33,765 nucleotides of DNA from Thermoflexales bacterium (GTDB taxonomy: Bacteria; Chloroflexota; Anaerolineae; J036; Brachytrichaceae): assembly GCA_017998555.1 (NCBI GenBank), contig JAGOCU010000002.1:1-33765 (forward strand), read 5' to 3'. The stretch's first letter is position 1; the number at the start of each line of letters is the position of its first letter. Made by a program: the position numbers and the translations under genes. Below, in pieces: positions 4,801-30,585 of this stretch. The notes below the pieces were generated by a model. The model did no database searches. It was not told the DNA's origin and saw nothing but the letters and a program-made list of their open reading frames with translations.

Positions 4801-5265
4801 GGCCCATGAGTCGAACTCGGGCGCGTCGGTCAGGGAGAAGCCCTCCAGAAACGGGCCGCGGGCCGCGTGCGCCGCCGAGCCCAGGGCCGAGAGCGTCGCG
4901 GGCGCTTCTCCAGTTCCCCGCGACAGGCTGGCGATGGCTTCGGTGATGACGCTCAAGTCGAGGGCGTAGCGGGCGCTGTGGTCGAAACCAATCCGGTCGC
5001 GTTCCAGGATGAGCGGTACGCCGGCCGGCTGCAGCGCCTCGCGCAAGCGGGCGAGGGTGTTGCGCAGGGCCGATTGGGCAAGGTGCGCGTCGCTCTCGGG
5101 CCACAGAAGTGCTTCCAGCTTCCCGCGCGTGTGCAGGCCGTTCTCGACGACGAGATAAGCGAAGAGGGCCAGGGCCTTGCGCGTGGCGAACTTGAGCGGC
5201 GCGCCGTTATTGGCGACCGTAGGGGCGCCCAGGAGAGAGATGTCGAGCCCGCTCAATTCGTACAT
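1864..5265 (-). CDS. AfsR/SARP-family STAND transcriptional regulator (OmpR-type wHTH + BTAD, NB-ARC-like P-loop ATPase, C-terminal TPR array)
   Basis: N-terminus MYELSGLDISLLGAPTVANNGAPLKFATRKALALFAYLVV...LLWPE (SARP wHTH). Then the BTAD-like helices (WRHQLDQVYDRLSLL..., AYQRLIQLHFANGDRAAAQRVYDACKLVLARDLGVAPSPDT). Walker A GEGGSGKTRLA is encoded near 4324-4350 and LLILDDFD is Walker B-like. The C-terminal ~450 aa are TPR-like (repeated A..Y.QAL.L......). The ORF track extends to 5544, but those extra 93 codons read through a hairpin and are low complexity, so I prefer ATG at 5265. Confidence 0.85.
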   Translation of the reverse strand: MYELSGLDISLLGAPTVANNGAPLKFATRKALALFAYLVVENGLHTRGKLEALLWPESDAHLAQSALRNTLARLREALQPAGVPLILERDRIGFDHSARYALDLSVITEAIASLSRGTGEAPATLSALGSAAHAARGPFLEGFSLTDAPEFDSWAETQRSIWRHQLDQVYDRLSLLQAEARQLPPAIQTVERWISQDALNEPAYQRLIQLHFANGDRAAAQRVYDACKLVLARDLGVAPSPDTDAALALARSAAPPGRVAPAEPAALPAPHNLPREVTSFIGRAAEVARLVQRLRDPAHPLITLTGEGGSGKTRLALAAARNLLESRPSCFADGVWFVPLADSAFGGGPPGREALALRMGNAFQFAFKGGQPLSAQILAWLKDKDCLLILDDFDRYLDGDAVDFLVELLPLAARLHVLVTSRVALDLNSESVFRVSGLPVPDDPQAAAAADSVRLFADRAARAGGSFDLEGQLPDVIAICRWVGGLPLGIKLAAAHAASLPCADILRALQSNLDLLASARRDIPPRQRSMRAILEYTWARLIPDEQTLLAQLSVFEGGFSREAARAVLGEAAEALDRLARQALLLPASDQRVVMHDLVRQFARERAGVSTNGETQLAEAADRHSAFYLRLWQSHEQSLRQVNARIVVAVLRQDERNLAAAWQRGVARERWDDIAGGLDGLLVYIDRSNVFHAGRGWALSALERLPESLDRQRKLRGRLLAALASLDGNLGLYDEAIASAEQAAALAQTLGERGVEIQADLTWAHLLYQRGAFPAALEKYQHALGLAREAAEARLEGDALWGIGWMYLQMEEYAPSQAPLEQALARHRAIQDAYGEMLGLTSLGVLARRRNRLDESEGWYEQALTLCQTLGDRHFEGKLLSNLGVVARMRCDFGAAGSRLEASLALLKQLGLPPNVEIVLGELGLLALATGDLGLARVRLEEALTIARSIGDRYGQSGFASNLSEVAHARGDNETALALARQGLTIADADGNASLRAIALVAEGDALQALGQLDEAEAGYRSAGAVYAAQRRTLPGLGPQAGLVEVALRRGGPAEARARAEEILGVLAADAATAACAPSAVYWACWQALRADRDPRAGALLTQARALLQARGRSIPDAAARARYAAQAAVGWAL

Positions 5266-5283
5266 TCTAGTGCTCGGGCAGCC

Positions 5284-5322
5284 CGGCAGATGGACCCACC
5301 TCCCAGGTGGGTCCATCTGCCG
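5284..5322. repeat. 17-bp perfect hairpin with 5-nt loop, immediately upstream of the regulator start
   Basis: CGGCAGATGGACCCACC (5284-5300) / TCCCA / GGTGGGTCCATCTGCCG (5306-5322). It ends 19 nt before the preferred ATG (5265, minus strand). Shares the 11-mer ACCTCCCAGGT with the hairpin at 905-981. Confidence 0.7.
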
Positions 5323-5375
5323 AGATTTGCCACAGAGATTCGTGGCGTTGGCGACGGCTCGGGTTCGCAGAAGTG

Positions 5376-5419
5376 GATACGGGCCTTGATACGGTCTTGG
5401 TACGCCCGGGGGGTAGGGT
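5376..5419 (+). promoter_or_regulatory. Candidate SARP box: three direct heptamer repeats at 11-12 bp phasing followed by a -10-like hexamer
   Basis: GATACGG (5376-5382), GATACGG (5388-5394), GGTACGC (5399-5405). After an 8-nt spacer (CCGGGGGG) comes TAGGGT (5414-5419). The site lies in the divergent region between the SARP gene and the SH3b/giant operon, ~60 nt upstream of the GTG at 5483. Confidence 0.35.
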
Positions 5420-5482
5420 CTGGCTACGAAATCCTCAGGGACTGCATCCCCGCCCGCCCCTTTTGCCCAAACGACCGTTACG

Positions 5483-5728
5483 GTGACCGACCCGGACGGT
5501 GCGGCGGTGCGTGGCGATCCGTCGATGGAGCAGGCGAACATCATCGGTTCCGCCGACCCCGGCAGCCAGTTTCAAGTGCTCGGCGAGTTTCTCCCCTGTG
5601 AGGGTATCGATCTGAATACCGGCTGCGATAGCTGGGCGCGGATCGTCTATCCCGGCCACGAGCAGGCTTGGATCTGTCTCGGATCCGGCACGGCCGTCTA
5701 TGGGCGGTTGGATTACCCCAATGAATGA
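5483..5728 (+). CDS. Small SH3b-like domain protein (81 aa, GTG start, no signal peptide)
   Basis: AAVRGDPSMEQANIIGSADPGSQFQVLGEF....WARIVYPGHEQAWICLG resembles a bacterial SH3 (SH3_3) pattern (vR..Ps....vig.l..G..v.vl.....W.ki...g..GWv). Third-position GC is coding-like. Start choice and function are uncertain. Confidence 0.5.
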   Translation: MTDPDGAAVRGDPSMEQANIIGSADPGSQFQVLGEFLPCEGIDLNTGCDSWARIVYPGHEQAWICLGSGTAVYGRLDYPNE

Positions 5729-5741
5729 CTTCGCGGTTCTT

Positions 5742-5784
5742 GGGGATCGACATCCATCGGCGAAGCCGATGGATGTCGATCCCC
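5742..5784. repeat. Palindromic element copy E (20-bp perfect stem, GAA triloop) in the 75-nt gap before the giant gene
   Basis: GGGGATCGACATCCATCGGC (5742-5761) / GAA / GCCGATGGATGTCGATCCCC (5765-5784). The apex CGGCGAAGCCG is identical to that of copy B (30507-30557). Confidence 0.8.
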
Positions 5785-5803
5785 ATGTCTGTTGGTAAAA
5801 CGC

Positions 5804-8800
5804 ATGCGCAAACAACGCCTCCTCATTCCCGTTCTGATTCTGGTCGCGGCCGGCCTGGCCGCCTTTGGCGGCCGGGCGATGGCCTCCTACGTGCCGGCGC
5901 CCCCGGCGGCGCCACCCAGCGCCGCCGCGCAGCTTGAGACCGCCTGGCAGAACGCCAAAGCCGCGGGCAGATACCGCTACGGCGCGGAAGTCGCCCAGAC
6001 CACCCATCCGACGGCGCGCTTTGAGAACCAGGGATTGAGCAGCAAGACCCAGCACTTCAGGCTCGATGGCGCGATCGATCTGCCGGCCCAGACGATGGAC
6101 CTCAAAATCTGGACGGGGGAAGGCAGCGTCGATTCCGAGGCCGATGCCCTGCAGTTGAAGGTCGCGGATGGCAAGTCGCTCGGCCGCACGGGCGTCGGCG
6201 CCTGGCATGAGTTGGAGGACGCCAGCGCCCTGTTTGCGCCCGAGCATGACGCGCTCAGTTTCCTGGTCGCGGCCCGAAACGTGGCCGTCGCTGGCACGGG
6301 GTCGAGCGCCGGGATCGGCTACACGCGGTATGCCTTCACCGTCGACGGGCCGGCCTATGCTGAGTACATGCGCGGGCGGATGGATGATGAACTGCGCCGG
6401 CGCGGCAAGCTGCCAGCCCAATTCAATACCAGCGTTATCCGCCAGTATGTCGATATGACGAGCAGCGGGGAGATCTGGGTGTCGGACGCGGGCCTGCCCG
6501 TGCGCGAGATTGTGCGGATGAGCTTCCCGCCTCAGGGTCTCGAGTGGGTTGACGCCGAGATCAGCACGGACTTCACCGATTGGGGTGAGACACGGCTTGC
6601 GTTGGGCGGGCCGGGCGATGTGCTCTCCCCATCACAGGTCCTGGAGCGGGCCCTGACCCCGGCGACCGTCGCCGGGTTGTCGCAGGCCGCCACCCTGGCC
6701 ACAATCGCGCTAGGCCTGGCCGCGTTTCTCTTGTTGCTGACCCGCTATGGCGGCTCGCGGCGGGTCTACCGAATGGTGGTGGTGTCAGTGATTGGCGCGA
6801 TGCTGTTTGGGCCCTTGCTGCAAACGCGCCAGGTGTCGGCCTTCATCGACGATCAGCAGGCGGCGCGGACGCGCGCCGATGAGCGGGCGGGCGCCGAAGC
6901 GCAGCAGCAACGCCTGGAGACTGTGCTGAATGCCAATGACTTTGATCCGAACGTCCCACCGTTGATGGCGGTGGCCGATCGTCAGGAAGCAGAGCGGCAA
7001 TTCGCCTTGGCCGGCGGCAGCCCCAGTCGGTTTGTCGCCGATGCCGGCGATCCCGAGCCTGACGACACCGCCGTCTACAACGGCTGCGAGAAAACCAGTG
7101 ATGACGCGGACCCCGACAACGACGGCCTGAGCAACATCCAGGAAGAGGCCCTCGGAACAGATCCGTGCGACCCCGATAGCGACAACGATGGCATCCCGGA
7201 CGGCGCGGAAGTTGTCGGCTTCAGCCTGGGCGGGCTGCGCTTCTATCTCGATCCGCAATCGGTCGACAGCGATCGCGATGGCATTCCGGACAGCATGGAA
7301 TGTGACTTCCTCGAGATGAACGCCGATCCGGCCAAGTGGGGGAGGGCAGAGCTTACAGGGCCGTTCAAGATCTGGGAGCGCCAGAGCAACCCCTTGACGG
7401 CGAAGTCGTGCGAGGACACCGACGCAGACGGCCTTCCTGATGTGTGGGACGACGACTCGGACGGCGATGGCGTGCCGGATGGCATCGATCTTGCGCCCAC
7501 GACCGTTCTCGCCGGCGGTTACGCGGGCGGGGCCCCCGCGGGCTTTGCAAATCAGAGCTTCGATCTGGCGATCAAGAGCCCGACTCCGGGCAAGCCCTTG
7601 ATGGTTGAGTTCCAGCTTCGGCCCGCCAACCCGGACCACCTCTTTCTGCGCCAGAACGTGCTGGACTGGGCGAAGGACGACCGCAAAGGCCAGGTCCAAC
7701 GGGTGAAAGATAGCACCTACGGGGCCAGCGGGCGGGACGCCAACGGCAACATGCGGCTGAACCCGTATCTCGAGATCAAGGTCACCCTGACCAATGGAAC
7801 GGGGGATGGCCTGCCCGTGAAGGCGGGCTACAACCAGAGGCCCATCACCCGCCAGACCCCGCTGGCGCAGTGGCTGGATCGCGAGGCGCTTTCGAGCTTT
7901 GGCATCTCGGTCAAGAGCGTCGATACGGCCGGGAACCTGGTGGTTTACGTGCCCATTCAGGTTGTGCGCGACAGCGTCGGGACCAAGCCCGTGGCGTTTT
8001 CGGCCACGATGTTCTACCGGCCGGGCGCCGCCGCGGACTGGACCAGCCAGGCGAAGCTGGTTTGGCTGATCGAGGCCATGACCGACTACTGCGACACGAG
8101 CGACGCGGACCCCAAGGGGGATGCGGATGCGTACGATAAGTGGTGCGCCGGGACGACCCATTGGAAGACCGTTCCCGATCAAGTCATTCACGCCTACTAC
8201 GACGATTGGTTCATGACCGGGATGTCGTTGCGTGAGGACCGTGGTGTGAAAGTGGGCGTGCTGTTCGAGGATCCCACCTACGCGAGCACCCATGATTTCA
8301 ATGCGAGCAACTACTACGAGGACAACCTCTGGCAATTGTCAGACAATATTGAAGGCAGCTTTCTGGCCGGGCGCGCCGGGATGTCGGTCGACGAACTGAA
8401 AAAGCGCTTCGATGATGGCAGCCCGTACGCCGATGGGGCCAAAGAATTGTGGGGCTTCCCCAAGGGCATGTTCCGGGTGGTCACTTACGCGCTGGAGAGC
8501 CAGGCCATGATGCCGGTGATGGCGATGACGAACACGCCGGCCCTGCTCAATCGCTATTTCACCCCGACCGCCGCCCTCATTGACGCGCCCACCCTCTTGT
8601 TCGCCCGCGAGGAGACCTTTCGCGCCCTGGCCCAGGAACCCGCCGGGCGGAGCGTGGCCAGCCGGCTGGAGTTCAACCTGTCCGAGACGATGCTGCCGGC
8701 CCAGACCATGGGCTCGTTGAACTGGGCCCCGTATCGCTACAAAGGCGCCCGGGTATGGGAGCCGTATCCGATCGCTGATTACATCGATCGCCTGCATGCG

Positions 8801-11800
8801 CGGCTGGGCCCGCTCTTTTCGGACGAGGACGAATTCAAGGACAAGTACGTCCTGGCCGGCGCTTTGCTCAATGCCGACGCGATGTTTGTCGCGCGTTTCA
8901 TGGGCGCCACCAGTGTCGTGCGGGTCGGGGCCGAGGCTGTGACCAACGCCGATGTGGCGGAAAAGGATGACAGCCTCACGGCAAAGATCACGGGCCAAAT
9001 CCCGAAGTTGGGCAAAAAAGCCAAGAAACAAGTTCTGGACCTGGCGAAGAAGCGCTCCACCATCGAGTTTGCGGCCAAGAGGGGTTTCTCGGGCGGGATT
9101 ACGCCGCAGAGCTCGGTGCATCGGACCTCCAAGTATTTGGAGACGATTGGGCAGGGCGCGTATGGAAAGAACCTGGGCGCGAAGCCCAAGCTCAAGAAAG
9201 GCGCCAATACCACCAAAAAGCAGATCGCCAAGGACTTTGCCGTTGTAGCGATCACGGCGGGTCTGATGGCGGGCGCGAACTACGGCGCACAGAAGGGCGG
9301 AGCAGGCGGCACGGGAAAGACCGGCGGCACCCTTGTCGCGATCGCCAAGTCCGTTAATGACATCAAAAAGGCCGCGACAGACGTGCGGGACGCGTACAAA
9401 GCGGTCAAGACCGCCAAGGCGAGCTATGGATCGATCTCGGCCGCGGCCAAGGCCGCGCCCAAAGTGCTGAAGAATGTCAAAGCGGGGACGGCTGCGATCG
9501 GCCTGGTCATCGAGGTCGGGGTCGCGGTCGGGATGTTCTTCCTCGAGTCGGCCGACATGAAGCCGGGCAGCGATGCCTACGACCAGGCCGTCGTGATGCT
9601 GGTGGCGACCATCATCGTGGCCGTCATCATGACGGTGATCGCGGCCATTCCGATCGTCGGTCAGCTCATCGCGGCCGTCATCGCCCTGATCGATGTGATC
9701 GCTGGCGCGATCTGCAAAGCGCTGGGGGTGGAGGCCGACCCCAACGGCAACAGCGCCAAGGACTGGTTATGCAATGGGTTGACCGGTCTGCTGACCAAGG
9801 CGGTTGCCAAGTTCATCTTCAGTTCCAATCCGATCGTCAACCTGAACGACGAGAGCCGACGGGTCGTCGGCGGCATGCAGCAGGACCTGACCGATCCCTC
9901 CAAGGGCTTTCAAGAGGGGAACGGGCTGAAGGTGAGCTTCAAGATCACCAGCACCATCGTGCCCAACGAACCCAACTCATGGATGGCCGAGATCTACTCC
10001 TACCACTATGAGGATTACTATCTCGTGCAGACGGAGATGGTCTATGCGCTTCAACTGCAGGATGCGGAGCTTCACAATGGCCTGCGGACGACCAGCAACG
10101 GGCTCTGGCGCTATTGGAAGAAGAACGCCAGCACCGGGCGCTTCTACACCGTCGCCCAGCCCAGCGTCTCGATCACCCTCACCCACGCCGGCCTGAATCA
10201 ACCGACCCGGATGCGCCTGGCCGAAGGCGTGGCGATCAACAAGCAGAAGTGCGGGTATTTCATCTTCACCGTGGTGTGCTGGCTAACCGACGAGAGCAAG
10301 ACGACGGGCATCCCAATCGACGACATGCAGCTCGATGTGTTTCCAAACACGTTCGCGAAATTCTACAATCTGGTTGACCGCGGCAATGACAGCTATGCGC
10401 TGTCGTGGGATCCAAGCTTCCCGACGTTGTGCGACGCGGATGGCGACGGGCTGCGCAGCAAGGCCTGTGGCGGCGGCGACCCCAACGATCGCAACCCGGA
10501 CTCGGACAACGACGGACTGTCCGATTTTGATGAGATCGTCACCTTCGGCACAAACCCGATCAATGCGGACACCGATGCCGATGGATTGACCGACTACTTC
10601 GAAGTCCGGTCCAACTCCGACCCGCTCCAGGCCGACAGCGACGGGGACGGCCTGTTTGATTGCGAGGAAGTCGCCCATCGGGTCACGGTCGTCGATTCGG
10701 CGAACCTGTGCGGATCGGTGGGGGCCTGGTCGGGCGGCTGGCTGTTCATTTACGCATTTAATGCCGCCAATCAGCCGCTGCGCACCCGGGTGCTGCCCAA
10801 CCCCGACAGTGTCGACAGCGATGGCGACGGGATCCTGGACAACAAGGAGCGGATTTACGGCTTCAACCCGCAGGTCTACTCGCGCCTGGATGTGCTGAGC
10901 CTCAATGCCGAGGTATTCGAGGATGGCGCGCAGACCGACGGATTCGTTGGCCCGGGCCAAACCCTGACTTATACCGCCCGGCTGAAGAACTTCCTGAATG
11001 ACAAGTTCGGGCAGGGCCTGCTGGATGTGGTGTTCCCGGCCGCAGTGGCGAGCGTGGATCTGTTGCCGCAGGCGTTTGTGCTGCAACCCCGCCAGACGGT
11101 CACCAAAACGGGCCGACTGACGGTCAGCCCGAGCATCACCGCGACCCAGCAGTTGACCCTGACCAACCGGGCCGGGGCCGAGATCACCGACTTGTATGGC
11201 AATTCGAATGAGGTGCGCACACTGTGGCTGCACTTCGACGAGAGCGCTGGCGCGACCACGTTTGTCGACAGCTCGGTCAATCAGAATACACCTGGCTGCG
11301 CAGCCTGTCCGCTCAGCGGGCAACCCGGTGTGGTGGGCCAGGGGTTGTTGTTTTCGGGCACTCAGTACATTTCCGGGACCACGATGAGTGGGATCCAACT
11401 GCTTGACTCGAGCTACAGCGTTGCGGTTTGGGTGAGCGTATCGCAGCCGATCTCCGGCGTCGTTATGCAGATTGGGTCAGTAGCCGGGGGTGATCGCGAT
11501 TTGCTTCAGATATCTAACGGCCGGCCGTCCATTTATGCGTTGCGGTGCTACTACGTGGGCTGCTATGGCAATATCGGGACGGCGGCATTCATGAGCGCGA
11601 CTGCGCCGTTGCCGGTGAATCAATGGCACGAGATTGTGTTCCGCTATGACAAGGACAAGCAGGAATACGCGATCTTCGTTGATGGCCGGCTCGATGTGGC
11701 TATTGCCGGCATGCGCGCACTCCGGGCTGCCGGCCCCGTCTTTATCGGCAGTGGGTTCAAGGGAAACTTGGACGAGCTGCAGGTCTTCAATCGGGCGCTG

Positions 11801-14800
11801 AGCGATGTAGAGATCGGCGCGCGGGCCAGCGCGCCGGCGCTGCGCCTGAAGTTCGATGGCGATTTCAAGGACGCATCGCCGTTCAAGCAGGCGGCGGTGA
11901 CTCGCAAGGCCGGTCAGCCCCTGAATTATCCGTGCTGCGATTACGACGATACAGCCAGCAAGACCCGGATCAGCTTTGGGTCCGGAAAATCGGGCAGTGC
12001 GGCGAGATTCTATGGTTGGTACTACGGCACTGCGTACGACACCGGCTACATTGCCAGAAACGGCCGCTGGATCAACGACGGATACTCGAATGCTCCGGTG
12101 GTGGCCGTCCCCGCCAATAGCAGCCTGGATCTGAGCGGGGGGCGCTTCACCCAGGCATTCTGGATTGATCCGAGTATCAAGCCGTATATGGACTTCGAGT
12201 ATTACACCTATGATCATCCGGGCCAGGATTCGGCGCTTTTGCATTCCGAAACTGCGCCAGAGAATGCCCGGGTGGGTGTCCTGGGCGGCGAGTCAGTCTA
12301 TCAAAACGACCCAGAGTATCGGTATCCGTTTGTCGAGCTGGTTGGACCCAATGCCAGGTTCCCGGTATCCGGCAATCCGGGTCTTCGCTTGCGCCTGGGT
12401 TTCAGCAACGTGTGCGTTGCCGAGTCGGCTCCATTGATCTTCGAGGGTGACTTCCAGCATGTGGTGATCAGTTTTGACAACGGCGTCTACACGATCTATA
12501 AAAATGGCGTGCTGCAACAGACCTTGCCATTGCCGGCCGGGTGCCAGAAGCCTGCCTCAATCAACTACATCAGCAACGCGCTGATTGGACGGTCGCGCGA
12601 GGCATATAAGGCCAGCACAGACAAAATACGCGAAGTGCGCCTGTACACCCAGACCAACTACACCGGCGCGTATATCTCGACGTCCATGGATCTGGCCAGC
12701 GTTGTGTATGGTGTTACCGCAAAGTCCGTCAAGTTGATCAACACCTGCGCCCGGCTGTACAGCGCGAATTTCTATACGGGGACGACGGAACTACTGTGCA
12801 GCGATGTGCCCGATATGAGCGGGCACGCAACGAACAACGCCATCCGCTCCGTCGAGTTCGGCCCGCGGGCGCGGGCCTTCAATGGCAGGCTGGACGATGT
12901 TCGGATATACCGCAGCGTGTTCAGCGGCGCGGATGCGCTCGATTTGTACAACGAGTCGCTGCGCCCGGTCGAGCTCAGCCTCGACGAGTCGCCCGGAACG
13001 AAACGTTTCCGCGACAACTCGTTTTCGGACAACAGCGTGACCTGTGATTACGCCGGCGGGCGCTGTCCGACCAGCGGGCTGGGCGGGCGGGTCAGTCAGG
13101 CCGCGCGCTTTGACGGCGTGAACGATACGCTTACACTCGGTCCGGGCGCGGTCAGCCTCTCGTCAGGTTCGTTTGGCGTGGCGGCCTGGGTCAAGACCAG
13201 CGCTGCGGGAACCCAGATCATCGCCCAGCAGCGCGGGCCAATTCCTGATCGGGATGCCTATCTGTTGGAAGTGAACGGCGGCAAGGCGCACTGGATGAGC
13301 ACCTCCGGCGGCGCCTCCTCACCCGCGTTCAACCTGACTTCTACCGTGACGATCACTGATGACCAGTGGCACCATGTGATGGGTTCAGGCGGCGGCAATC
13401 AGGCTCAAATCTATGTGGATGGTGTCGAAGTGGCCACCAATCTGTCGGTGCCAGGCATCGCGTTTGCGACGAATGCGTTGTCGGTGACGATCGGCGGCGA
13501 CTTGCTTTCGAACCGCCGCTACTTCAATGGACTGCTCGATGACGTCAAGATCGTGCGGGACGAGGCCACCTCTGGGGCCGGTGTACAGACGCTGCTGGAT
13601 GCGGCGCCGAATCTCAGCCTGCACCTCGATGACGCCGATGGCGCGCGGGTCTTTGCCGATGACACCCGCCTGCATCTCGACGGCGGCTGTTTTGGGGCGG
13701 CCTGCCCGCAGCCCGGCGCCTTTGGCCAGGTGCGCGGCGCGGCGACCTTTGACGGGATCGATGACATCATTACGGTGCCGGACACCAGCACACTCCGCCT
13801 GCGGACCTTCAGCATCGGCTTGTGGGTTCGTCCCACCGAGATCCGTTCGGGCCGGCAGACCCTGGTGAACCGGGGCGGTTATTCGGAAGCCTGCTCACAG
13901 GACGCCAACGACAAGAATCGGAATTACTACATCGGGATCGAGCCGATGTCGATGACGCTGCGCTTCCTGGCCGGCCAGACGCCCTATGTGTTTCCTGGCG
14001 CGCCGGACCCCGGCAAGCCCGAGGCCTGCGCGACGCTTGCGCCGTTGTTCAACCTGACGACCACCAAGAAACTCAATCTCAAACAGTGGAATCACGTGAT
14101 GGGAACCTTTGATGGCCGCATCGCGCGGCTGTATGTCAACGGTTCACTGGCCGCCAGTTCGCCGGCGGTCAATCCGGCTGCCGTCATGCCGATCATGCCG
14201 AATGCGCCGGTCGAGATTGGCAGGCTTTTCAACCCATCGAGTTTCGATCTTCCGTTCAGAGGCGAGCTTGACGAGCTGAGCATCTATGGGTCGGACCTGA
14301 GCGCTCGGACCATCAAGCAAGTCTATGACTACCAGGCGGCCTGGTTCGACTTCAGCATGGGGACGCGCCTCACGGTCGATGCCGAACGCCCAGCGGTCAA
14401 GATCGACCTGAATGTCCCGCGGATCAAACTGGCCCAGGATACGGTCCTGTGCGCTTTGGCTTCCGATGCCAGCTCGGGTGTGCGTTCCATCGAATACAGC
14501 GAAAATGGCGCGCTCTGGAAGAGCGCCGACATCGGGGCGGGTTATGCCGCCGTCATCACGAGCACCGACGGCAATGGCGCGACGATTACCCGCACCACCA
14601 CCACCGCTGGCTCCCAGCGCAGCGCGGCGGGTTGTTTCGTTACCCCGATCGTATCGAGCGCGGGCGTGAAGACGATGTATGCTCGCGCGACCGACGCGGT
14701 CGGGCTCACCCGCACAACGACCGTAACCTTCTCGGTTGATGGCGCCGGGCCGGTCGTGGCGCTGGCGGCCAGCCTCCAGGCCGCCCCGCGCAGCGCGGTC

Positions 14801-17800
14801 AGCAATACCGTGCTTCTGACCGGCACGGCCACGGATGCGACCGGCGGCGTCGGCTCGGTGACAGTGGCCCTGATTGACGAAACGGGCGCCGGCACGAGCG
14901 GTGCTGTGACTGCAACCTTGACCGCCGGCGGGTGGATGGCCGACTATGCGTTCTCCTTCGCGCCGCATGGCGCGTACACCGTCGCCCTGCGGGCCGCCGA
15001 TGATGTGGGCAATGTCACGCTTCGGTCCAGCGACCGGATCGCCATCGATGGCGCGGGTCCGCTGGCCGACCTCACCTACACCGGCCCAAGCACCCGCAGC
15101 CTGGCCGGGCTTGGTGATCAGCTGCCGGTGATCGCCGGCACGGTCGCGGATGTGCCGTACCCGTCGAATGCCATGCTGCACTTGCACTTTGAAGAGGCCG
15201 CGGGCGCGCCCAGCTATGCCGATGGCTCCACCCATCGCCGCGATGCGGTTTGCGCGAGCACCTGCGGGCAGGCGCCCGGCCTGCTGGGCCAGGCGGTTCA
15301 ACTCGGCGCCGCCAGCGCCCTGACCGTGAATGAGCCAATCACGGTGAGCGACTTCACGCTGGCGCTGTGGGTGAAGCCGCAGACCACCCAGAGCGCCAAC
15401 CTCATCGCCCGGCGGGCTGGCGCCAGCGTGCAGTTTCAACTCCGAATCAACGCCGCAGGCGCCTTCGAGGCGTATGCCTCGGACGGCGGCCCGCAGGTGA
15501 TCTCGGGCACCACGCCGATTGTGGCGAATACCTGGTATCACGTCGCGGCGATGGCGACCAGCCAGGGCGCCTTGCGGCTGTTTGTCAACGGGGTCGAGGA
15601 ACGCGCGGGCGTCAGCATGGGCAATCTGGCCGACGCCGGCAACGAGTACCTGCTCGGCGGCCTCACTCCCGGCGCGGCCGCGCCGTTTGCGGGACTGCTG
15701 GACGAGGTCCTGGTCTATGACTACGCGCTGCGCCACGATCAGATCTTTGCGATTGCCCGGTCGACGGCCAGCGGGGCGCAGAGTGTCGATGTCGGGCTGC
15801 GGCATGTCAAGGACTTCACCGACGATGCGGCCATCGCCTGGTATCCCGCGCTGATGGCGCCGGCCGGGCAGATCTTCGGGACCTGGAGCTTTACCCTGCC
15901 CGAGGGTGTGGAAGGGCCGTTTGACATTGCCCTGCGGGCCCGGGACGCGCTTGGAAACGAGCGGACCGCCCTTGCGGCCTGGTCGGGCGAGGTGGATACG
16001 CTCGCGCCGCGCGTGCTGCTGACGACGACGATCGAGGGCGGACGGGTGCGCTACACCACGACCGCCCAGGACTACAACCTGGCGGCTCAGGGTTTCAATT
16101 CGGCTTGCGGCGCCGATGTCACGACGGGCCGGCGGCTCTACGAGGCCGACTGGTACACCCGTGTGATCTCGCCTGACAAGGGTGACATCAAGGAACCGGA
16201 ACAAACCGCGCTGCGCGGAAAGCTCTTCGAACTCAGCGCCAGCTGTCTCCTTGACGCGCCCCCCTCGATGGCGGAGACGGGTGTTGCCCCGATGTTCTAC
16301 CCGCGGGCCGTTGTCGCCAACGCCAACGCGCTGTATGCCTTCGACATCGGCGTTCGGGTGATTGCCTATGACGTCTCCAATCCCGATCGCCCAATCCAAC
16401 AGGGCGCATGGCCGATGCCCGGCGCTGCAGGCAGGCTGGCCTTGACCGGGAACTTGTTGCTTGCGTCGACCGGCAGCGGGATTGCCATCGCTTCCATCGC
16501 CGCGCCCCTGCAGCCAATCAGCCTTGGATCGGTTGCGCTCACCAATGTCACCTACATTGAGGACATCGCCGTCGCGGGCCAGTACGCCTATGCGGTCGCG
16601 GGGCAGAGCGGTCTGCGCGTGATCGACCTGGCCAACCCGGCGGCGCCGGTCGAAATCGGCGCCTTGAACACATTCAGCCACGCGACGAGCGTGGCCGTCA
16701 GCGGCACGCAGGCCGTGGTCGCCGACTGGTACGGCCGGCTGCGCATTGTCGATATCACGTCTCCGGCCGCGCCGGTGGAGATCGGTCATTTCGACGTGCC
16801 CGGTTTCCTCACGTCGGTCGCCTTGCGTGGGTCACTGGCCTACGTCGCTTCGTATCGCGGCCTGGAGATTGTCGACATCTCCAACCCGGCTGCGACGGTC
16901 CTGGTCGGGCAGCGTGCCTTGCCGGGACATGGGGTGCGGGTGGTCATTTCGGGAACCGACGCCATCGTTGGGCTGTTGGATTCCGGGGTTGCCATTGTGG
17001 ACGTGTCCGACCCGTCCGCGCCGCTGCTCAGCCGCGCCTTCGACACGCCGGGCCGTGCCATCGATGTCGCGCCGCGCGGCGGGCGGATCTATGTCGCCAA
17101 CCTCAGCGACATTCGCGTGCTGAACCCCTTGCTTCGGCCGGCGTCCATCGCTGTTGACACGGCGGGGAATGTCGGGCGACTGGTGTTGCCGGCGCTGACC
17201 AAAGCCCAACTCGCGCAGCTCAACGCCAATCCGGAGGCGCCTTCGGTCGAGTCGGACGCCTTGAGCCTGCAAATCAACAGCATTCCGCCCTTGTTGAGCG
17301 GGGCGCCGTATACCCTGGCCGGCCTGGCCGCCAGCACGGATGGCGCCTCACTCCGGACGCTCAGCGCGACCGTGGACGGCGCGCTGATCTACACCCAGAG
17401 TTGGACCCCGGGCGCGGCGCTGGGGATCGCCTGGAGCGGCGCCTGGACGCCGACCGGCGAGGGCGCGCATGTGGTCGTGTTGCGGGCCGTGGACTGGGTC
17501 GGCGCCAGCGCCGAGGAGACCGCGACCCTCTTTGTCGACACACTCGCGCCGGCGCTCGGGTTGTCGACCACCCTGTTCGGCCCGAGCCAGTTTGGCGCGC
17601 AGGGCGCGATCGATCTGCGCGGGTCGGCCAGCGACGGCAGCGGCATCCGCGACGTCATTGTCCGGGTCGATGGCCAATCGCTCACGGCGACGCTTGACGG
17701 CGCGAACGGCTGGACGGCCCGCTGGCAGACCGGGCTGGCCGCGCTGCCGGACGGGCTGAGCGTTCCCGTCGTCGTCACTGCCACCGACACGGTTGGGCGG

Positions 17801-20800
17801 GAAACAGTGATGTCCAACGGGCTGCTATTGGATGCGGCCCCGCCCGGCGCGGTCGTCGTGTCGCTGAGCTATACCAACAGCCTCGGCGCGCGGGTGGCGC
17901 TGGCGCCCGGCCAGACGATTTACGATGTCCTCACCCCGACCCTGCTGATGACCTGGACGGAGGCTCTGGACGCGGGCGGGCTCGACCACTATCAGGCTGG
18001 CTGGACGGGCGGCGTGACGTTGACAGCCCTCGAACTGGCCGGGCTGCTCACGACGCCGCCTGCGACGCGCGACAACGCGCAGGCCGTGGGCGAAGCGCGC
18101 AAGGTCTACGCCCACGTCATCGCCACCGACCTCATGGGCAATCAGACCGAGAGCACGCTCGGCCCGATGTTTGTCGACTACCGCCAGACCAACGACTACA
18201 TCGCCCTAGATGACGCGGAAGGCATCTATCGCGGGTGGATGAACAGCGGATGCGCGCTGCTCGGGACGGACCTGCGGGTGAGCCGCAGCCTGCCGGAGCG
18301 CTCGCCGCTGGGCGTGCCGCAATCGTTGTTCGCGAGCTGGGACGCGAGCGCGCTGCGCCTGGCCTGGCAGGGCGCGGACTGGGATCGCGACGGCGACCTG
18401 TTCGTGTATCTGGCCGGCCCGGGCGCGGGCACAACGAGCGCTTACAACCCATACGCCCCGGACCGGGCGATCACCCTGCCCATGCAAGCCAACCGCCTGG
18501 TGTGGGTGCGCGGGGCCAATGACTGGTCGTTCCTCAACTGGACCGGATCGGAGTGGGCGGTCATCGACTGGCCGGGGCTTGACTTCCGCTTCACCCAGGC
18601 GCCCGCGTCGCCGTATACAGATCTGTTGCTTCCATTCGCCGCGCTGGGGGTGACGAATCCCGCCACCACCACGCTCGGGCTGCTTGCCCTGGCGGCCGAG
18701 GGTTCGCCGGACGGGCTGCGGGTGTGGGCGACCCTGCCACGGCGTAACGCGCTGAATGCGGCCCGCGTCGTCGGGATGACCGAGGCGGCGGCGCGCGCGA
18801 TAGATGGGCTTGGCGATCCGACCCGGGCCTATGCCCTGGCCCTGGGCGCCGATCGCTGCGCGCAGGAGGCTGTCTACAGCGGAGCCGACCTGGATATGCA
18901 CGCCAGCGCGATCCCGGCCGGACAGGCCAGCGTGTTGTATGAGGATGGCTGGACGGTGTCGGGCGGCGATCTGCAGAGCGCCTTGATCGGATCCGGAGAT
19001 GCGATTGAGTATCGCTTCGATATCGCCAACCTGGGCGTTGGGCCGGCCCTGAACGCCGCCATCGTCCTGACCGGCGACCAGGTCAACCTCGGCAACGCCG
19101 CCGTGGGCGACCATGTATGGGTGAAGACCGTTGTTCTGGGCGACATCGCGGCCGGGGCGACCCGCACGGTGACCGTGACCGGCAGCGTCGACCTGGCGGC
19201 CGGGGCGGTCCGCGGCAACCGGGTGCGCCTCGACAGCGCGCTGGTTTTTGATCACGCGGACGACGCGGGCGACCCGCTGACCTACCGGCGCAGCGAGCAT
19301 GCGGCGGACATCAGCCCGCCCACCCACCTGAAACTGCTGCCGGGCAGCGGCCTGGCCGGGTCCGGCGCGCAGACGGTCAATGGGATCGTCCACGACGATG
19401 GCGCGGTCCCGACCATCACCCTCGAGGTGAAGGCCCCTGGCGACGCTGTGACCTCTGTGGCCTGCCCGGGCGCGCTGCCGGGCGGGAGCTGGCAGTGCGG
19501 CTGGGACAGCGGGGCCAACCCGGCCAATGACGCGCTGTTCCAACTGCGGGCGCAAGCCACCGACGCGTATGGCAACGTCAGCGCCTGGACGGGCTGGACG
19601 GACGTGCGGATCGACACCCAGCCGGTCACCATCAGCCTGAGTTCGGACACCGAGGCCGGGCTGTCAGACGGCATTCTTTCGTCCGGCGAGAACTTCTTCT
19701 CGGGGCGATTGGATGACAACCGGGAGGTCAGCCGGATCGACCTGTGCGCGACGGGCGGCCTGAGTTGCGCGGCCGCTGCGTTGGTGTTTGATGAGCCGGC
19801 GGCACAGCGTCTCTACACCTTCGACGATGCGCCGGAGGCGCCCATCCCGTTTGACGTCCCGCAGCAATGCGCAATCGGTGTGCCGCTGACCCGGACCTTC
19901 ACCGTCAGCGAATCGTTCACCCTCGCGAACGTGAGCCTGGGGCTCAATGCGACGCTGGCAAACCGGGCCGCCCTGTCGGCGACGCTCCGCTCACCGGCTG
20001 GAACGCGGGTGGCGCTGCGCGCGCCGGGCGGCGCGGGCGGCAGCGATCTGGACGTGCGCTGGGATGACAGCGCGGCGATATCGTTGTCGGCCGATGGCGC
20101 CAGTCACAACACGGGCGCCCCCGACTACGACAACCCGCGCTACCCGGCCACCGCCCTGAGTGCCTTTGACGGCCAGGATGCGGCCGGGGTGTGGACGCTC
20201 AGCGTATGCGCGACCGACGGCCAGAGTGGGGCCTACAACCACGCTCAGCTCAGTCTGGAGCGTCAGAGCGTCGCCGTAAACCGCGGCGCGAGCTGGTCCC
20301 ACACCGTGCCCCTGCCCGAGCCGGCGGACGGTCTGTCGCAGACATTGGTGCTGAATGCCTTTGACCTCCTGGGCAATCGGACCGGGCCGCTGACCTTCTC
20401 CTTCCTCGTGGACAACGTCGCGCCGGTGTTGACCCTGACGGAGGCGGCGGCCACGCTGCCCTTCACCCTCGGCACGGCCGCGCTGCCGGTGCTGACCGGG
20501 ACGGTGCTGGACGGCGGGCACGTCAAGAGCGTGTTCGTGACCGTGCGCGCGCCGTCGGGAGAGGTCAGCGCCGAGTTGACCTCGGGCGGAACGCTCGCCG
20601 CCACAAATCGGCCGGAAGCGGCGATCCCGTGGCGCTACGACTTGCAGCCCAACCAATCCGGCGTGTATGGATTGTCGGTTACCGCCGTCGACGATGCGGG
20701 CAACAGCGTCACGATTGGCGCCTACGAGATCACGGTGACGGTCCTGACTGTGCCCGACGTGGTGATCTACCGGGCCAACCTGCCGCTCATCACGGGTGGT

Positions 20801-29852: not shown

Positions 29853-30470
29853 TCACGACAGCTTCATCACCACCATCCCAAACACGTTGGCGGTGGTGTC
29901 GGCCCGGTCGGACATATTTGAGACGTGCCGATAGACCTCGCGCCGGTTGAGCACGGACGGCAGGTTCTCTCCGGTGGCCTTGGAGAACAAGTCGGCCACC
30001 GCGACGCGGTAAAGGTGATCGACCTCGCCCTCGAGCTTCTTGGCTCTCCGGGCATGGTCGCCGGCTACCCGCGGGTTGGCGCTCAGGCGTTGGGCGGCCA
30101 TGTGCAGCTCCTGGGCTTCCTGGCGCACCAGTGCCACCATTTTGCGCAAATAGTCGTCGCCCTGGACCTTGAGCAGCACCAGTTCCTCGAGTGTCGACAG
30201 GGCGTAATCGAGCATGTCGTCCATGTAGAGCGACAGGTTGAACAGGTCCTCGCGATCGACCGGGGTGACAAAGGTGTTGTGCAGTTCGTCGATCAGGATC
30301 CGGCGCGTCTCGTCGGCGTCCATCTCGACCGCGCTCAGCTTGTCGATCCCGGCCTGGTCGGGGTGGTCAATCAGCGACTCCAGCAGCTCGATGCCCTTGA
30401 CGGTCTTGGCGGCCTGCTCGATCAGCAGAACGATAAAGCGATCTTCTTCCTTCTTCTTGCGTCCAAACAC
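29853..30470 (-). CDS. DUF47 / PhoU-like phosphate-transport regulator (YkaA-type partner of PiT transporters)
   Basis: ...FGRKKKEEDRFIVLLIEQAAKTVKGIELLESL...ETRRILIDELHNTFVTPVDREDLFNLSLYMDDMLDYALSTLEELVL...EGEVDHLYRVAVADLF fits DUF47 (TIGR00153-like). The track ORF starts at TTG 30500. I prefer GTG 30470 because a perfect AAGGAG (30485-30480, minus strand) lies 9 nt upstream of it. Confidence 0.85.
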   Translation of the reverse strand: MFGRKKKEEDRFIVLLIEQAAKTVKGIELLESLIDHPDQAGIDKLSAVEMDADETRRILIDELHNTFVTPVDREDLFNLSLYMDDMLDYALSTLEELVLLKVQGDDYLRKMVALVRQEAQELHMAAQRLSANPRVAGDHARRAKKLEGEVDHLYRVAVADLFSKATGENLPSVLNRREVYRHVSNMSDRADTTANVFGMVVMKLS

Positions 30471-30506
30471 AATCTTTTTCTCCTTCAAAGCCACTGACAA
30501 AACTTC

Positions 30507-30557
30507 TTCCCGGAGGCGATATCCCCCGGCGAAGCCGGGGGATATCGCCTCCGGGAA
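30507..30557. repeat. Palindromic element copy B (24-bp perfect stem, GAA triloop) between the PiT and DUF47 genes
   Basis: 30507-30530 pairs perfectly with 30534-30557 (TTCCCGGAGGCGATATCCCCCGGC / GAA / GCCGGGGGATATCGCCTCCGGGAA). The outer stem GGAGGCGATATCCCC is identical to copy A. Confidence 0.85.
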
Positions 30558-30585
30558 TGGTTTTGTTGCGAGTCCTTAGGCCTGA

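What the first reader, a model, noticed from the sequence alone, without database searches (positions are those of the whole stretch)
6680..9725. Giant protein 1 appears to cross the membrane several times far from its N-terminus, with a Lys-rich low-complexity segment
Giant adhesins normally have one N-terminal signal and at most a terminal anchor. Here, after the signal-like N-terminus, there is a TM hairpin at about aa 300-345 (6680-6825) with an Arg-rich connecting loop. About 800 aa later comes a Lys/Ala-rich stretch (8985-9480) with visibly lower GC, followed by 3-4 strong TM helices (9233-9286, 9482-9545, 9587-9723). TSP3 calcium-binding repeats, which are typically extracellular, lie between the two TM clusters, and about 3,700 aa of extracellular-type modules follow. 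This implies a large protein threaded through the membrane with a basic, possibly cytoplasmic, loop. That would be a potential signalling or anchoring core rather than a passive adhesin.
Basis: partly seen in the sequence, partly recalled or inferred. Interest (0 to 1): 0.65.

Follow-up and report, generated by a model that had tools for sequence, protein, structure and literature searches.

The report
Multi-pass membrane anchor in giant protein
The 5,058-residue surface protein almost certainly crosses the cell membrane six or seven times, using two helix clusters that belong to a conserved, undescribed 1,600-residue N-terminal module found in hundreds of giant proteins of Chloroflexota bacteria.

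Summary
ORF 5792-20968 (5,058 aa) has an N-terminal signal or anchor, a hydrophobic hairpin at aa 295-343, and a Lys-rich stretch at aa 1065-1230 holding 30 of the protein's 125 lysines. It then has three strongly hydrophobic helices (aa 1231-1253, 1261-1284, 1289-1311), preceded by a weak one (1148-1165).

These features are neither artefact nor chance. The N-terminal ~1,600 aa are collinear in at least 923 cluster representatives, mostly 3,000-7,000 aa. All 30 genome loci recovered are Chloroflexota. The helices are among the best conserved parts: G1290 in 116/116 sequences, D1301 in 108/116.

The hairpin loop is net positive in 116/116. The loop before helix C is positive in 83-89%. Conserved cysteine pairs and calcium-binding TSP3 repeats lie on both sides of the second cluster. 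AlphaFold2 gives confident helices 23-39 residues long.

The likeliest reading is a polytopic membrane anchor, with the internal helices re-starting export and about 3,750 aa outside the cell.

The extreme lysine richness is particular to this protein. The GC dip comes from Lys codons, not foreign DNA. A signalling role is not supported. The N-terminal domain has a LolA/LprG-like fold. The remaining domains of the module match nothing known.

The parts
5792..20968 (+). Giant ORF, 5,058 aa. The listed start is TTG at 5792; the likely true start is ATG at 5804.
5810..5887 (+). N-terminal hydrophobic segment (aa 7-32), a signal peptide or signal anchor, followed by AMA|S.
   Evidence: KD 2.06. 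The family mean KD at this position is 1.84.
5921..6577 (+). LolA/LprG/LppX-like alpha+beta domain (aa 44-262), predicted extracytoplasmic.
   Evidence: AF2. Foldseek hits LprG 3mh9 at E 2e-7, prob 1.0, target TM-score 0.5-0.56. Two of 26 relatives weakly hit Pfam LppX_LprAFG.
6674..6751 (+). TM1 of the hairpin (aa 295-320).
   Evidence: KD 2.22. AF2 helix 293-319. Family mean KD 2.0.
6743..6769 (+). Arg-rich loop RYGGSRRVY (aa 318-326), predicted cytoplasmic.
   Evidence: In the family it carries 2.95 K/R and 0.07 D/E in 9 aa and is net positive in 116/116. S322, R/K323 and Y326 are conserved.
6764..6820 (+). TM2 of the hairpin (aa 325-343), ending in the near-invariant P341.
   Evidence: KD 1.91. 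AF2 helix 323-380. P341 is present in 114/116.
7109..7501 (+). First TSP3 calcium-binding repeat cluster (aa about 440-570), containing the conserved pair C504/C540.
   Evidence: Pfam TSP3_bac E 2.9e-10. The Cys pair is at least 94% conserved.
7514..8926 (+). Beta-rich conserved domain of unknown fold (aa 575-1045), containing the conserved pair C767/C785.
   Evidence: AF2 pLDDT 80-95. No Pfam or PDB match. Conserved in all relatives.
8984..9481 (+). Lys/Ala-rich, poorly conserved linker (aa 1065-1230). Its second half (aa 1166-1230) is probably the cytoplasmic loop.
   Evidence: 30 Lys. AF2 pLDDT below 50 up to aa 1191, then amphipathic helices. Family identity about 0.1, but length is conserved at a median of 182 aa.
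9233..9286 (+). Weak hydrophobic helix A (aa 1148-1165), a candidate TM helix running from outside to inside.
   Evidence: GES 1.12. 72% of relatives have one or two strong hydrophobic helices in this linker, with KD up to 3.6 and helix A about 57 aa before helix C.
9482..9550 (+). TM helix C (aa 1231-1253).
   Evidence: KD 2.15. AF2 helix 1215-1253, with pLDDT 78-91 across helices C-E (aa 1231-1310). Family mean KD 1.95.
9572..9643 (+). TM helix D (aa 1261-1284).
   Evidence: KD peak 2.99. AF2 helix. Family mean KD 2.2-2.5 with 44-49% identity.
9656..9724 (+). TM helix E (aa 1289-1311), carrying the invariant G1290 and the mid-helix D1301. It probably acts as the signal-anchor that starts export of the C-terminal ~3,750 aa.
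   Evidence: G1290 in 116/116; D1301 in 108/116. AF2 helix.
9713..9772 (+). Conserved cysteine pair C1308/C1327 just after helix E, a putative juxtamembrane disulfide on the outer face.
   Evidence: Each Cys is present in 113/116.
9818..10411 (+). Beta domain of unknown fold (aa 1343-1540), containing the conserved pair C1487/C1496.
   Evidence: AF2 pLDDT above 90. No Foldseek hit below E 0.01. No Pfam or PDB match.
10454..10831 (+). Second TSP3 repeat cluster (aa about 1555-1680). LamG, LVIVD, Ig-like and P-domain modules follow.

Best explanation
The hydrophobic stretches are true transmembrane helices. They belong to a conserved ~1,600-residue N-terminal module that anchors a giant surface protein in the cytoplasmic membrane of a Chloroflexota bacterium.

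Proposed topology (inferred):
1. The N-terminal signal or anchor exports the LolA/LprG-like domain.
2. TM1 stops transfer.
3. The Arg-rich 9-residue loop stays in the cytoplasm.
4. TM2 restarts export of about 700 aa: a coiled segment, TSP3 repeats and a beta-rich domain.
5. Helix A (weak here, strong in most relatives) stops transfer.
6. A basic amphipathic loop of about 65 aa stays inside.
7. Helix C goes out, followed by a 13-aa acidic outside loop.
8. Helix D returns inward and makes an uncharged tight turn (IPxVG).
9. Helix E acts as the internal signal-anchor for the remaining ~3,750 aa (beta domain, TSP3, LamG, LVIVD propeller, Ig-like domains).

The result is a six- or seven-pass anchor. 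Disulfide-stapled, calcium-stiffened juxtamembrane parts sit on the outside, holding a very long extracellular tether or adhesin in an organism reported to lack a classical outer membrane.

Shown here: the presence of the helices, their conservation, the charge asymmetry, the helix predictions, and the Cys and TSP3 distribution. Inferred: the actual insertion, the exact number of helices upstream of C, the side of the first half of the Lys-rich linker, and the biological role of the ectodomain.
For: Conservation:
- A phmmer search with aa 575-1560 finds 923 representatives at E<=1e-3 and 508 at E<=1e-30. Most are 3,000-7,000 aa and match collinearly at their aa ~570-1570.
- All 30 genome loci are Chloroflexota. 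Every locus whose sequence extends far enough upstream carries the N-terminal domain about 3.6-3.75 kb upstream of the TM cluster.
- Family-mean hydropathy peaks at the same four places. Helices D and E are among the best conserved parts of the module.
- G1290 is in 116/116, D1301 in 108/116 and P341 in 114/116. Substitutions in the helices are almost all apolar.

Charge asymmetry:
- The TM1-TM2 loop has 2.95 K/R and 0.07 D/E and is net positive in 100% of sequences.
- The loop before helix C is net +2.0 to +2.4 and positive in 83-89%.
- The C-D loop is net -0.6 and the stretch after E is net -1.7.

Sidedness of the flanks:
- Conserved Cys pairs 504/540 and 767/785 lie between the clusters; 1308/1327 and 1487/1496 lie after them. 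None lies in the linker.
- TSP3 calcium-binding repeats sit on both sides.

Structure prediction:
- AF2 gives helices 1215-1253, 1261-1284 and 1289-1311 at pLDDT 78-91.
- AF2 gives the hairpin as helices 293-319 and 323-380.
- Helix 1018-1037 packs into the globular domain, so it is not an extra TM helix.
- Helices D and E have a low hydrophobic moment, 0.12-0.34, so they are hydrophobic all round.

Other:
- The TopPred-like scan gives 4 segments in the window's second cluster and 4 or 5 in 88 of 116 relatives.
- P0001, from an Anaerolineae MAG, is a complete 1,134-aa gene that ends right after a strong hydrophobic helix lying in the linker, about where helix A sits. That fits a helix running outside-to-inside.
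- Chloroflexota are considered monoderm and lack BAM and LPS genes (PMC13319060, read).
Against: - No dedicated topology predictor (DeepTMHMM, TOPCONS) was available. My hydropathy and TopPred-like scans over-call segments in the Ala/Gly/Val-rich beta domains.
- Helix A is weak in this protein (KD about 1.2), and AF2 does not model it (pLDDT below 50).
- By a KD 1.6 threshold, relatives have 0, 1 or 2 hydrophobic helices upstream of C (25%, 39%, 33%). True parity cannot vary, so some of these calls must be wrong.
- The 15 residues before helix A are also net positive in the family (+1.2 to +1.8). In this protein aa 1046-1147 carry 22 K/R against 8 D/E, which does not fit the positive-inside rule if that part is outside.
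- The D-E turn carries no charge in any sequence, which is unusual for a cytoplasmic turn.
- No experimental data exist for any family member.
Confidence: 0.75

Rival explanations
1. The membrane core is more than an anchor and is a functional device. One version is ion- or proton-coupled, or mechanosensitive. It would use the near-invariant mid-membrane Asp (D1301) and the basic cytoplasmic loop to pass information or force between the giant ectodomain and the cell. A second version has the core working with the LolA/LprG-like domain to move lipid or glycolipid towards the outer envelope layers.
For: - The helices are more conserved than most of the soluble parts of the module.
- G1290 is invariant. 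D1301 is 93% conserved in the middle of helix E, and no conserved basic partner is seen.
- Linker length is conserved at a median of 182 aa despite sequence divergence, and Lys is enriched about 3-fold over the rest of the module.
- The N-terminal domain has the fold of the lipid carriers LprG, LppX and LolA.
- BTAD-AAA-TPR regulators recur next to family members: the window, L023, L029 and L033.
Against: - No recognisable cytoplasmic output domain (kinase, cyclase, DNA-binding) is present. The only cytoplasmic parts are a 9-aa loop and a disordered linker.
- No conserved small partner gene was found in the flanks.
- A conserved Asp and Gly could simply serve helix packing or oligomerisation.
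- Lipid binding was not tested.
Confidence: 0.15
2. The protein is released from the cell. On this view the hydrophobic helices are a latent insertion or translocation region that enters a target membrane, like the hydrophobic hairpins of colicins, diphtheria toxin T domain or large clostridial toxins. The Lys-rich amphipathic helices would shield them.
For: - Lys-rich amphipathic helices (hydrophobic moment 0.5-0.6) precede a 55-aa hydrophobic hairpin.
- The top Foldseek hits of the downstream beta domain are pore-forming proteins, but these are not significant (E 0.017-0.5, prob <=0.2).
- There is one weak Pfam BB_PF hit (E 0.07).
Against: - No toxin or enzymatic effector domain is present.
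- BB_PF hits only 1 of 15 relatives.
- Lys richness is not conserved in the family.
- The family also has a second, N-proximal hairpin whose loop is positive in 116/116, the signature of a resident inner-membrane protein.
- Helices D and E are hydrophobic on all faces. Segments this hydrophobic would normally be integrated by the Sec machinery during export (established knowledge).
Confidence: 0.05
3. The hydrophobic stretches are buried core elements of soluble domains, or an assembly or insertion artefact, and the protein is an ordinary secreted adhesin.
For: - Shuffles of this Ala/Leu/Val-rich protein often reach KD 2.0-2.2 by chance.
- Beta domains of the same protein give false positives in the TopPred-like scan.
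Against: - The segments are conserved in position and sequence in more than 100 aligned relatives from independent assemblies.
- GC3 is unchanged across the region.
- AF2 predicts helices 23-39 residues long, not strands.
- The 55-aa stretch contains a single charged residue.
- The D/E peak of KD 2.99 was reached in 1 of 1000 shuffles.
Confidence: 0.03

Closest known systems
Membrane-anchored giant adhesins of monoderm bacteria (for example S. aureus Ebh, with a C-terminal TM anchor, and LPXTG-anchored giants); from my own knowledge
   Same: A very long chain of extracellular adhesive or Ig-like modules is held at the cell by an element in or near the cytoplasmic membrane.
   Different: - Those proteins have one N-terminal signal and one C-terminal anchor.
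- This one has no C-terminal hydrophobic segment or sorting motif.
- Its anchor is an N-proximal, multi-pass module with two helix clusters separated by about 700 exported residues.
Omnitrophota giant proteins ('Archaeovorins'), West-Roberts et al., bioRxiv 10.1101/2023.11.21.568195
   Same: Giant bacterial proteins predicted to have numerous transmembrane regions, with most domains extracellular.
   Different: - Those are over 30,000 aa and carry SecA DEAD helicase domains. Their authors themselves call the TM predictions unreliable.
- This protein has no SecA domain and a different phylum.
- Its TM helices are few and positionally conserved, and lie within a defined module.
T1SS RTX adhesins (LapA, SiiE, MpIBP type); from my own knowledge
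   Same: Giant size, calcium-binding repeats and Ig-like repeats.
   Different: - No RTX nonapeptide repeats and no C-terminal T1SS signal were detected.
- RTX adhesins have no TM helices and are retained in an outer membrane, which Chloroflexota are reported to lack.
LolA / LprG / LppX lipid-carrier fold
   Same: The N-terminal domain (aa 44-262) matches LprG and LppX structures (Foldseek E 2e-7 to 1e-5, prob 1.0, target TM-score 0.5-0.56).
   Different: - Sequence identity is only 8-14%.
- The domain is fused to a TM hairpin inside a giant protein instead of being a small lipoprotein or periplasmic carrier.
- Ligand binding is untested.
Polytopic proteins with large ectodomains: polycystin-1 and adhesion GPCRs in eukaryotes, YhgE/Pip-EsaA in Firmicutes; from my own knowledge
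   Same: Large adhesive ectodomains are combined with a multi-helix membrane core, and a big exported loop is flanked by TM helices.
   Different: - No sequence or fold similarity was detected.
- The main ectodomain here is C-terminal to the membrane core.
- There is no channel or G-protein-coupling domain.

Membership tests
Chloroflexota giant-protein family sharing the N-terminal ~1,600-aa module (undescribed; defined here) | Collinear order: signal, LolA-like domain, TM hairpin, TSP3, beta-rich domain, variable linker, three conserved TM helices, beta domain, TSP3. | tested here: met
   The window matches P0004-P0152 end to end, 115 aligned relatives, and the genome loci wherever they extend far enough.
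Chloroflexota giant-protein family sharing the N-terminal ~1,600-aa module (undescribed; defined here) | Signature residues: P341, G1290, D1301, and Cys pairs 504/540, 767/785, 1308/1327 and 1487/1496. | tested here: met
   All are present in the window and at least 90% conserved in 116 sequences.
Integral polytopic membrane protein | Hydrophobic helices about 20 residues or longer, with positive-inside charge asymmetry. | tested here: met
   KD 1.9-3.0. AF2 helices of 23-39 aa. Hairpin loop positive in 116/116; pre-C loop positive in 83-89%; outside loops acidic.
Integral polytopic membrane protein | Experimentally shown membrane insertion and topology. | not testable with these tools
   Needs PhoA/GFP fusions, cysteine accessibility or fractionation.
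Integral polytopic membrane protein | A consistent even number of helices in the second cluster, so that both flanking ectodomains lie outside. | tested here: inconclusive
   The window has 4 segments by the GES scan. The family gives 4 in 46 sequences, 5 in 42, 3 in 11 and 6 in 14. Helix A is weak in the window.
LPXTG / C-terminally anchored Gram-positive adhesins | C-terminal sorting motif, then a hydrophobic segment, then a basic tail. | tested here: not met
   There is no hydrophobic segment after aa 3736 and no LPXTG motif in the C-terminal sequence. Only 6 of 90 full-length relatives have a C-terminal hydrophobic tail.
RTX / T1SS giant adhesins | RTX nonapeptide repeats, a C-terminal secretion signal and no TM helices. 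| tested here: not met
   No HemolysinCabind or RTX hit in Pfam or NCBIfam. TM helices are present.
Omnitrophota Archaeovorin-type giant proteins | SecA DEAD helicase domain within the giant protein, and size over 30,000 aa. | tested here: not met
   No SecA domain. The protein is 5,058 aa. Family features were taken from the paper read.
LolA-like superfamily (LprG, LppX, LolA) | Half-barrel beta sheet with helices forming a hydrophobic cavity. | tested here: met
   Foldseek prob 1.0, E 2e-7, target TM-score 0.5-0.56. Pfam LppX_LprAFG is weakly hit in 2 of 26 relatives. The window itself has no Pfam hit.
LolA-like superfamily (LprG, LppX, LolA) | Binding of a lipid, lipoprotein or glycolipid ligand. 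| not testable with these tools
   Needs biochemistry.
Pore-forming or translocation regions of secreted toxins (colicin, TcdB, beta-PFTs) | Recognisable pore-forming domain together with a toxic effector domain. | tested here: not met
   Only non-significant hits: Foldseek E>=0.017 and BB_PF at E 0.07 in 1 of 15. No effector domain.

The most novel reading that the evidence does not exclude
The conserved three-helix membrane core would be an active device, not a passive anchor. Its parts are the invariant Gly, the mid-membrane Asp and the length-conserved basic cytoplasmic loop, fused to a LolA/LprG-like lipid-carrier domain and two beta domains of unknown fold. One possibility is an ion-coupled or mechanosensitive link between a >3,700-residue extracellular tether and the cytoplasm. 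Another is a role in moving lipid or glycolipid to the enigmatic outer layers of the Chloroflexota envelope.
Probability: 0.15. Interest if true: 0.85.

Novelty: new variant of a known kind. Interest (0 to 1): 0.6.

Why it matters
Giant bacterial surface proteins are usually pictured as secreted chains with one terminal anchor. This protein belongs to a family of at least 923 clusters, confined in my sample to Chloroflexota. Here the anchor is a conserved multi-pass membrane module that is absent from Pfam and NCBIfam and that I did not find in the literature.

Chloroflexota are abundant filamentous bacteria in soils, sediments and wastewater sludge. Their envelope is poorly understood: they stain Gram-negative yet lack BAM and LPS genes.

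This family offers three things:
- a concrete, testable candidate for how very long proteins are exported and held in such envelopes;
- two confidently predicted domains with no known fold;
- a membrane core with a near-invariant buried Asp that invites mutational study.

It also gives annotators a usable signature. At present these proteins are named only after their C-terminal LamG, Ig or P domains.

Tried and rejected
1. Word-indexed homology search. It found only 4 relatives with the single sequence and only 1 with a 15-sequence profile, probably swamped by TSP3 and hydrophobic words. The exhaustive phmmer search was needed.
2. The genome scan with a single sequence found nothing. The 15-sequence alignment was too divergent to seed patterns. 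A 4-sequence alignment worked.
3. Foreign DNA or insertion as the cause of the Lys-rich, low-GC stretch. Rejected, because GC3 is unchanged, the dip lies in codon position 1, there is no tandem repeat of note, and the linker is present with conserved length in relatives.
4. A sixth TM helix at aa 1020-1045, which is hydrophobic in P0001, P0002 and some others. Rejected, because AF2 packs it into the globular domain with a following strand at pLDDT 84-89.
5. Colicin-like or beta-pore-forming identity of aa 1046-1560. Rejected as non-significant and not recurrent in the family.
6. A Wzy_C (O-antigen ligase) match at the hairpin, seen in 6 of 26 relatives with best E 0.0019 and far below cut-off. 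Treated as generic TM-hairpin similarity.
7. Search for a conserved partner gene. ORF clustering across 33 loci gave only shadow ORFs and other large surface-protein genes. Called genes around P0001, P0004, P0009 and P0032 share no small partner.
8. A whole-protein TopPred-like topology. It was too noisy, with false positives in beta domains, so I used it only for counting helices in the cluster.
9. Four literature searches found no description of this family.

Full report
**The gene.** The window holds a single 15.2-kb ORF, 5792-20968 on the + strand, encoding 5,058 aa. The likely start is the ATG at 5804. Its stop overlaps by 8 nt the ATG of a second large ORF of 2,944 aa that carries PKD, DUF7640 and choice-of-anchor Q domains. 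A BTAD-AAA-TPR regulator is encoded divergently upstream. In the first 1,700 aa, Pfam sees only bacterial TSP3 repeats, in two clusters at aa about 440-570 and about 1555-1680. Further on come five Laminin_G_3 domains, LVIVD repeats, Ig-like domains and a P-domain.

**Checking the observation.** A Kyte-Doolittle scan finds hydrophobic segments at aa 7-32, 295-320, 325-343, 1231-1254 and 1261-1315. The last is 55 aa with a peak of 2.99.
- Nothing beyond aa 1700 exceeds KD 1.80.
- aa 1065-1230 contain 30 of the protein's 125 lysines. In 1000 shuffles no 166-aa window held more than 16.
- The GC dip is modest and lies in codon position 1 (0.52). GC3 is 0.78 against 0.82 for the gene, so it reflects AAR Lys codons and not foreign DNA.
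- There is no DNA tandem repeat of note.
- Peaks of KD 2.0-2.2 arise often in shuffles of this Ala/Leu/Val-rich protein. Hydropathy alone is therefore weak evidence, and the case rests on what follows.

**Relatives.** The word-indexed searches found only five relatives. One of them, P0004, is collinear with the window over aa 43-1597 at 25% identity and includes both helix clusters.
- The exhaustive phmmer search with aa 575-1560 found 923 cluster representatives at E<=1e-3 and 508 at E<=1e-30. Most are 3,000-7,000 aa and match at their own aa ~570-1570.
- A pattern scan of one genome per species returned 30 loci, all from Chloroflexota. They span Anaerolineales, Caldilineales, Ardenticatenales, Thermoflexales and Chloroflexia, including Oscillochloris.
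- Every locus whose sequence extends far enough upstream carries the N-terminal domain 3.6-3.75 kb upstream of the TM cluster.
- Source names are generic, such as 'Ig-like domain-containing' or 'LamG-like jellyroll fold domain-containing'.
- Pfam, NCBIfam and PDB sequence searches give nothing for the module apart from calcium-binding repeats.
- Four literature searches found no description.

**Family-level evidence that the helices are transmembrane.** I aligned the N-terminal 1,950 aa of 115 relatives with the window.
- Mean hydropathy peaks at window aa ~10-25, ~305-345, ~1235-1250 and ~1265-1305. The last has mean KD 2.2-2.5 and 44-49% identity to the window, which places it among the best conserved parts of the module.
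- G1290 is invariant (116/116). D1301 is present in 108/116, with Glu or Asn in the rest. P341 is in 114/116 and Y326 in 101/116. Other helix positions vary only among apolar residues.
- The 9-residue loop of the first hairpin carries on average 2.95 K/R and 0.07 D/E and is net positive in all 116 sequences.
- The loop just before helix C is net +2.0 to +2.4 and positive in 83-89%.
- The C-D loop (-0.6) and the 15 residues after helix E (-1.7) are acidic.
- Four cysteine pairs are at least 90% conserved: 504/540 and 767/785 between the clusters, 1308/1327 immediately after helix E, and 1487/1496 in the next domain. None lies in the linker.

Paired conserved cysteines and TSP3 calcium sites on both flanks argue that both flanks are extracytoplasmic. 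That in turn requires an even number of helices in the second cluster.

**Structure prediction.**
- AF2 on aa 1001-1560 (24-sequence alignment) leaves aa 1001-1191 disordered, with pLDDT below 50.
- It then gives helices 1181-1211, 1215-1253, 1261-1284 and 1289-1311, with pLDDT 78-91 over the hydrophobic helices. A beta domain at 1343-1540 follows at pLDDT above 90.
- That model has no Foldseek match in the PDB below E 0.01.
- AF2 on aa 1-1060 (pLDDT 76) gives an alpha+beta domain at 44-262, hairpin helices at 293-319 and 323-380, and a beta-rich domain at 575-1045 with pLDDT 80-95.
- The moderately hydrophobic helix 1018-1037 packs into that last domain and is followed by a strand, so it is not an additional TM helix.
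- Foldseek matches the N-terminal domain to the mycobacterial lipid carriers LprG, LppX and LprF, and more distantly to LolA, EPDR1 and VioE (E 2e-7 to 1e-3, prob ~1.0). Two of 26 relatives also weakly hit Pfam LppX_LprAFG.

**The Lys-rich linker.** The region equivalent to aa 1046-1230 is the least conserved part of the module, with identity about 0.1. Its length is nevertheless conserved, with a median of 182 aa and a 5-95% range of 153-209.
- Lys is about 3-fold enriched there family-wide (6.1% against 2.1%).
- The window is the extreme of the 116 sequences, at 16.8% K and net +23 against a median net +1.
- Most relatives carry a strongly hydrophobic helix (KD 2-3.6) about 57 aa before helix C. 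One third have a second, more amphipathic one, and a quarter, including the window, fall below KD 1.6.
- The window's weak helix 1148-1165 lies at the corresponding distance, 65 aa before helix C. It passes the 'certain' GES cut-off in my TopPred-like scan, which gives 4 segments in the window's cluster.
- P0001, a complete 1,134-aa gene in an Anaerolineae MAG, ends immediately after a strong hydrophobic helix lying in the linker. That is compatible with a helix running from outside to inside.

**Most likely mechanism.** The protein is a resident polytopic membrane protein whose internal helices alternately stop and restart Sec-dependent export.
- The LolA-like domain, the 700-aa middle region and the C-terminal ~3,750 aa end up outside.
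- The 9-aa Arg loop and the ~65-aa basic amphipathic loop before helix C stay inside.
- Helix E serves as the signal-anchor for the giant ectodomain.

In a phylum regarded as lacking a classical outer membrane (PMC13319060), this yields a six- or seven-helix anchor for a very long surface tether or adhesin. The insertion itself, the parity of the second cluster and the location of aa 1046-1147 are inferred, not shown.

**Unresolved.**
- The stretch before helix A is also positively charged, both in the family and very strongly in this protein.
- Threshold-based helix counts vary among relatives.
- The D-E turn is uncharged in every sequence.
- The conserved mid-membrane Asp has no visible basic partner.

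The high conservation of the helices and this Asp leave room for a more active role of the core. There is no cytoplasmic output domain and no conserved partner gene. BTAD-AAA-TPR regulators do recur next to family members.

**Verdict.** The thing itself is a member of a large, undescribed, Chloroflexota-restricted family, and it is best classed as a new variant of the known kind 'membrane-anchored giant surface protein'.

Noticed in passing
window 5741-5785: A perfect 21-nt inverted repeat with a 3-nt loop (TGGGGATCGACATCCATCGGC / GCCGATGGATGTCGATCCCCA) ends 18 nt before the likely ATG start (5804) of the giant gene. It could be a 5'-UTR regulatory hairpin or a protein-binding palindrome.
   Followed up: partly
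window 20961-20968: The stop codon of the giant ORF overlaps the ATG of the next ORF by 8 nt. That ORF is 2,944 aa, with a signal peptide and PKD, DUF7640, choice-of-anchor Q, P-domain and Big_9 domains. The overlap suggests one operon with coupled translation. ORF2 lacks the N-terminal membrane module.
   Followed up: partly
window 1864-5544 (-); L023, L029, L033: A 1,226-aa BTAD-AAA/NB-ARC-TPR (SARP/AfsR-like) regulator lies divergently upstream. Similar regulators lie next to family members in at least three other loci, with two copies in L033.
   Followed up: partly
window 5921-6577 (aa 44-262): The N-terminal domain has a LolA/LprG/LppX-like lipid-carrier fold that Pfam does not detect in this sequence.
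   Followed up: yes
window 7514-8926 and 9818-10411: Two confidently predicted beta-rich domains (pLDDT 80-95 and above 90) have no Pfam family, and no convincing PDB relative was found. They are candidate new folds or families. For aa 575-1045, the Foldseek list of the 1,060-residue model was dominated by the LolA-like domain, so a structure search with that domain alone was not done.
   Followed up: partly
L001 (P0001); P0002 and P0153, both with a 24,592-nt longest contig: Some relatives are short. P0001 is a complete 1,134-aa gene that ends right after a hydrophobic helix in the linker, with a transposase gene about 8 kb upstream. P0002 (1,128 aa) and P0153 (569 aa, covering the TM cluster) look like one gene split in two, if they lie on the same contig. 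They may be decayed copies, frameshifts or true stand-alone N-modules.
   Followed up: no
L022 and L030; L034 34416-39308: One Anaerolineae MAG (JAUIAP01) carries two paralogues of the family. In L034 another giant gene (6,616 aa, with LamG, Cadherin and Big_9 domains) lies 5 kb downstream of the family member, after an ABC/MacB-FtsX gene.
   Followed up: no
window 6665-6850 (aa 292-353): The TM hairpin gives weak hits, far below cut-off, to Pfam Wzy_C (O-antigen ligase) in 6 of 26 relatives (best E 0.0019; window E 0.24). This is probably generic TM similarity.
   Followed up: no
window 29853-31575 (-): A PhoU_div (DUF47) plus PHO4 phosphate-transporter gene pair lies downstream. They look like ordinary housekeeping genes.
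   Followed up: no
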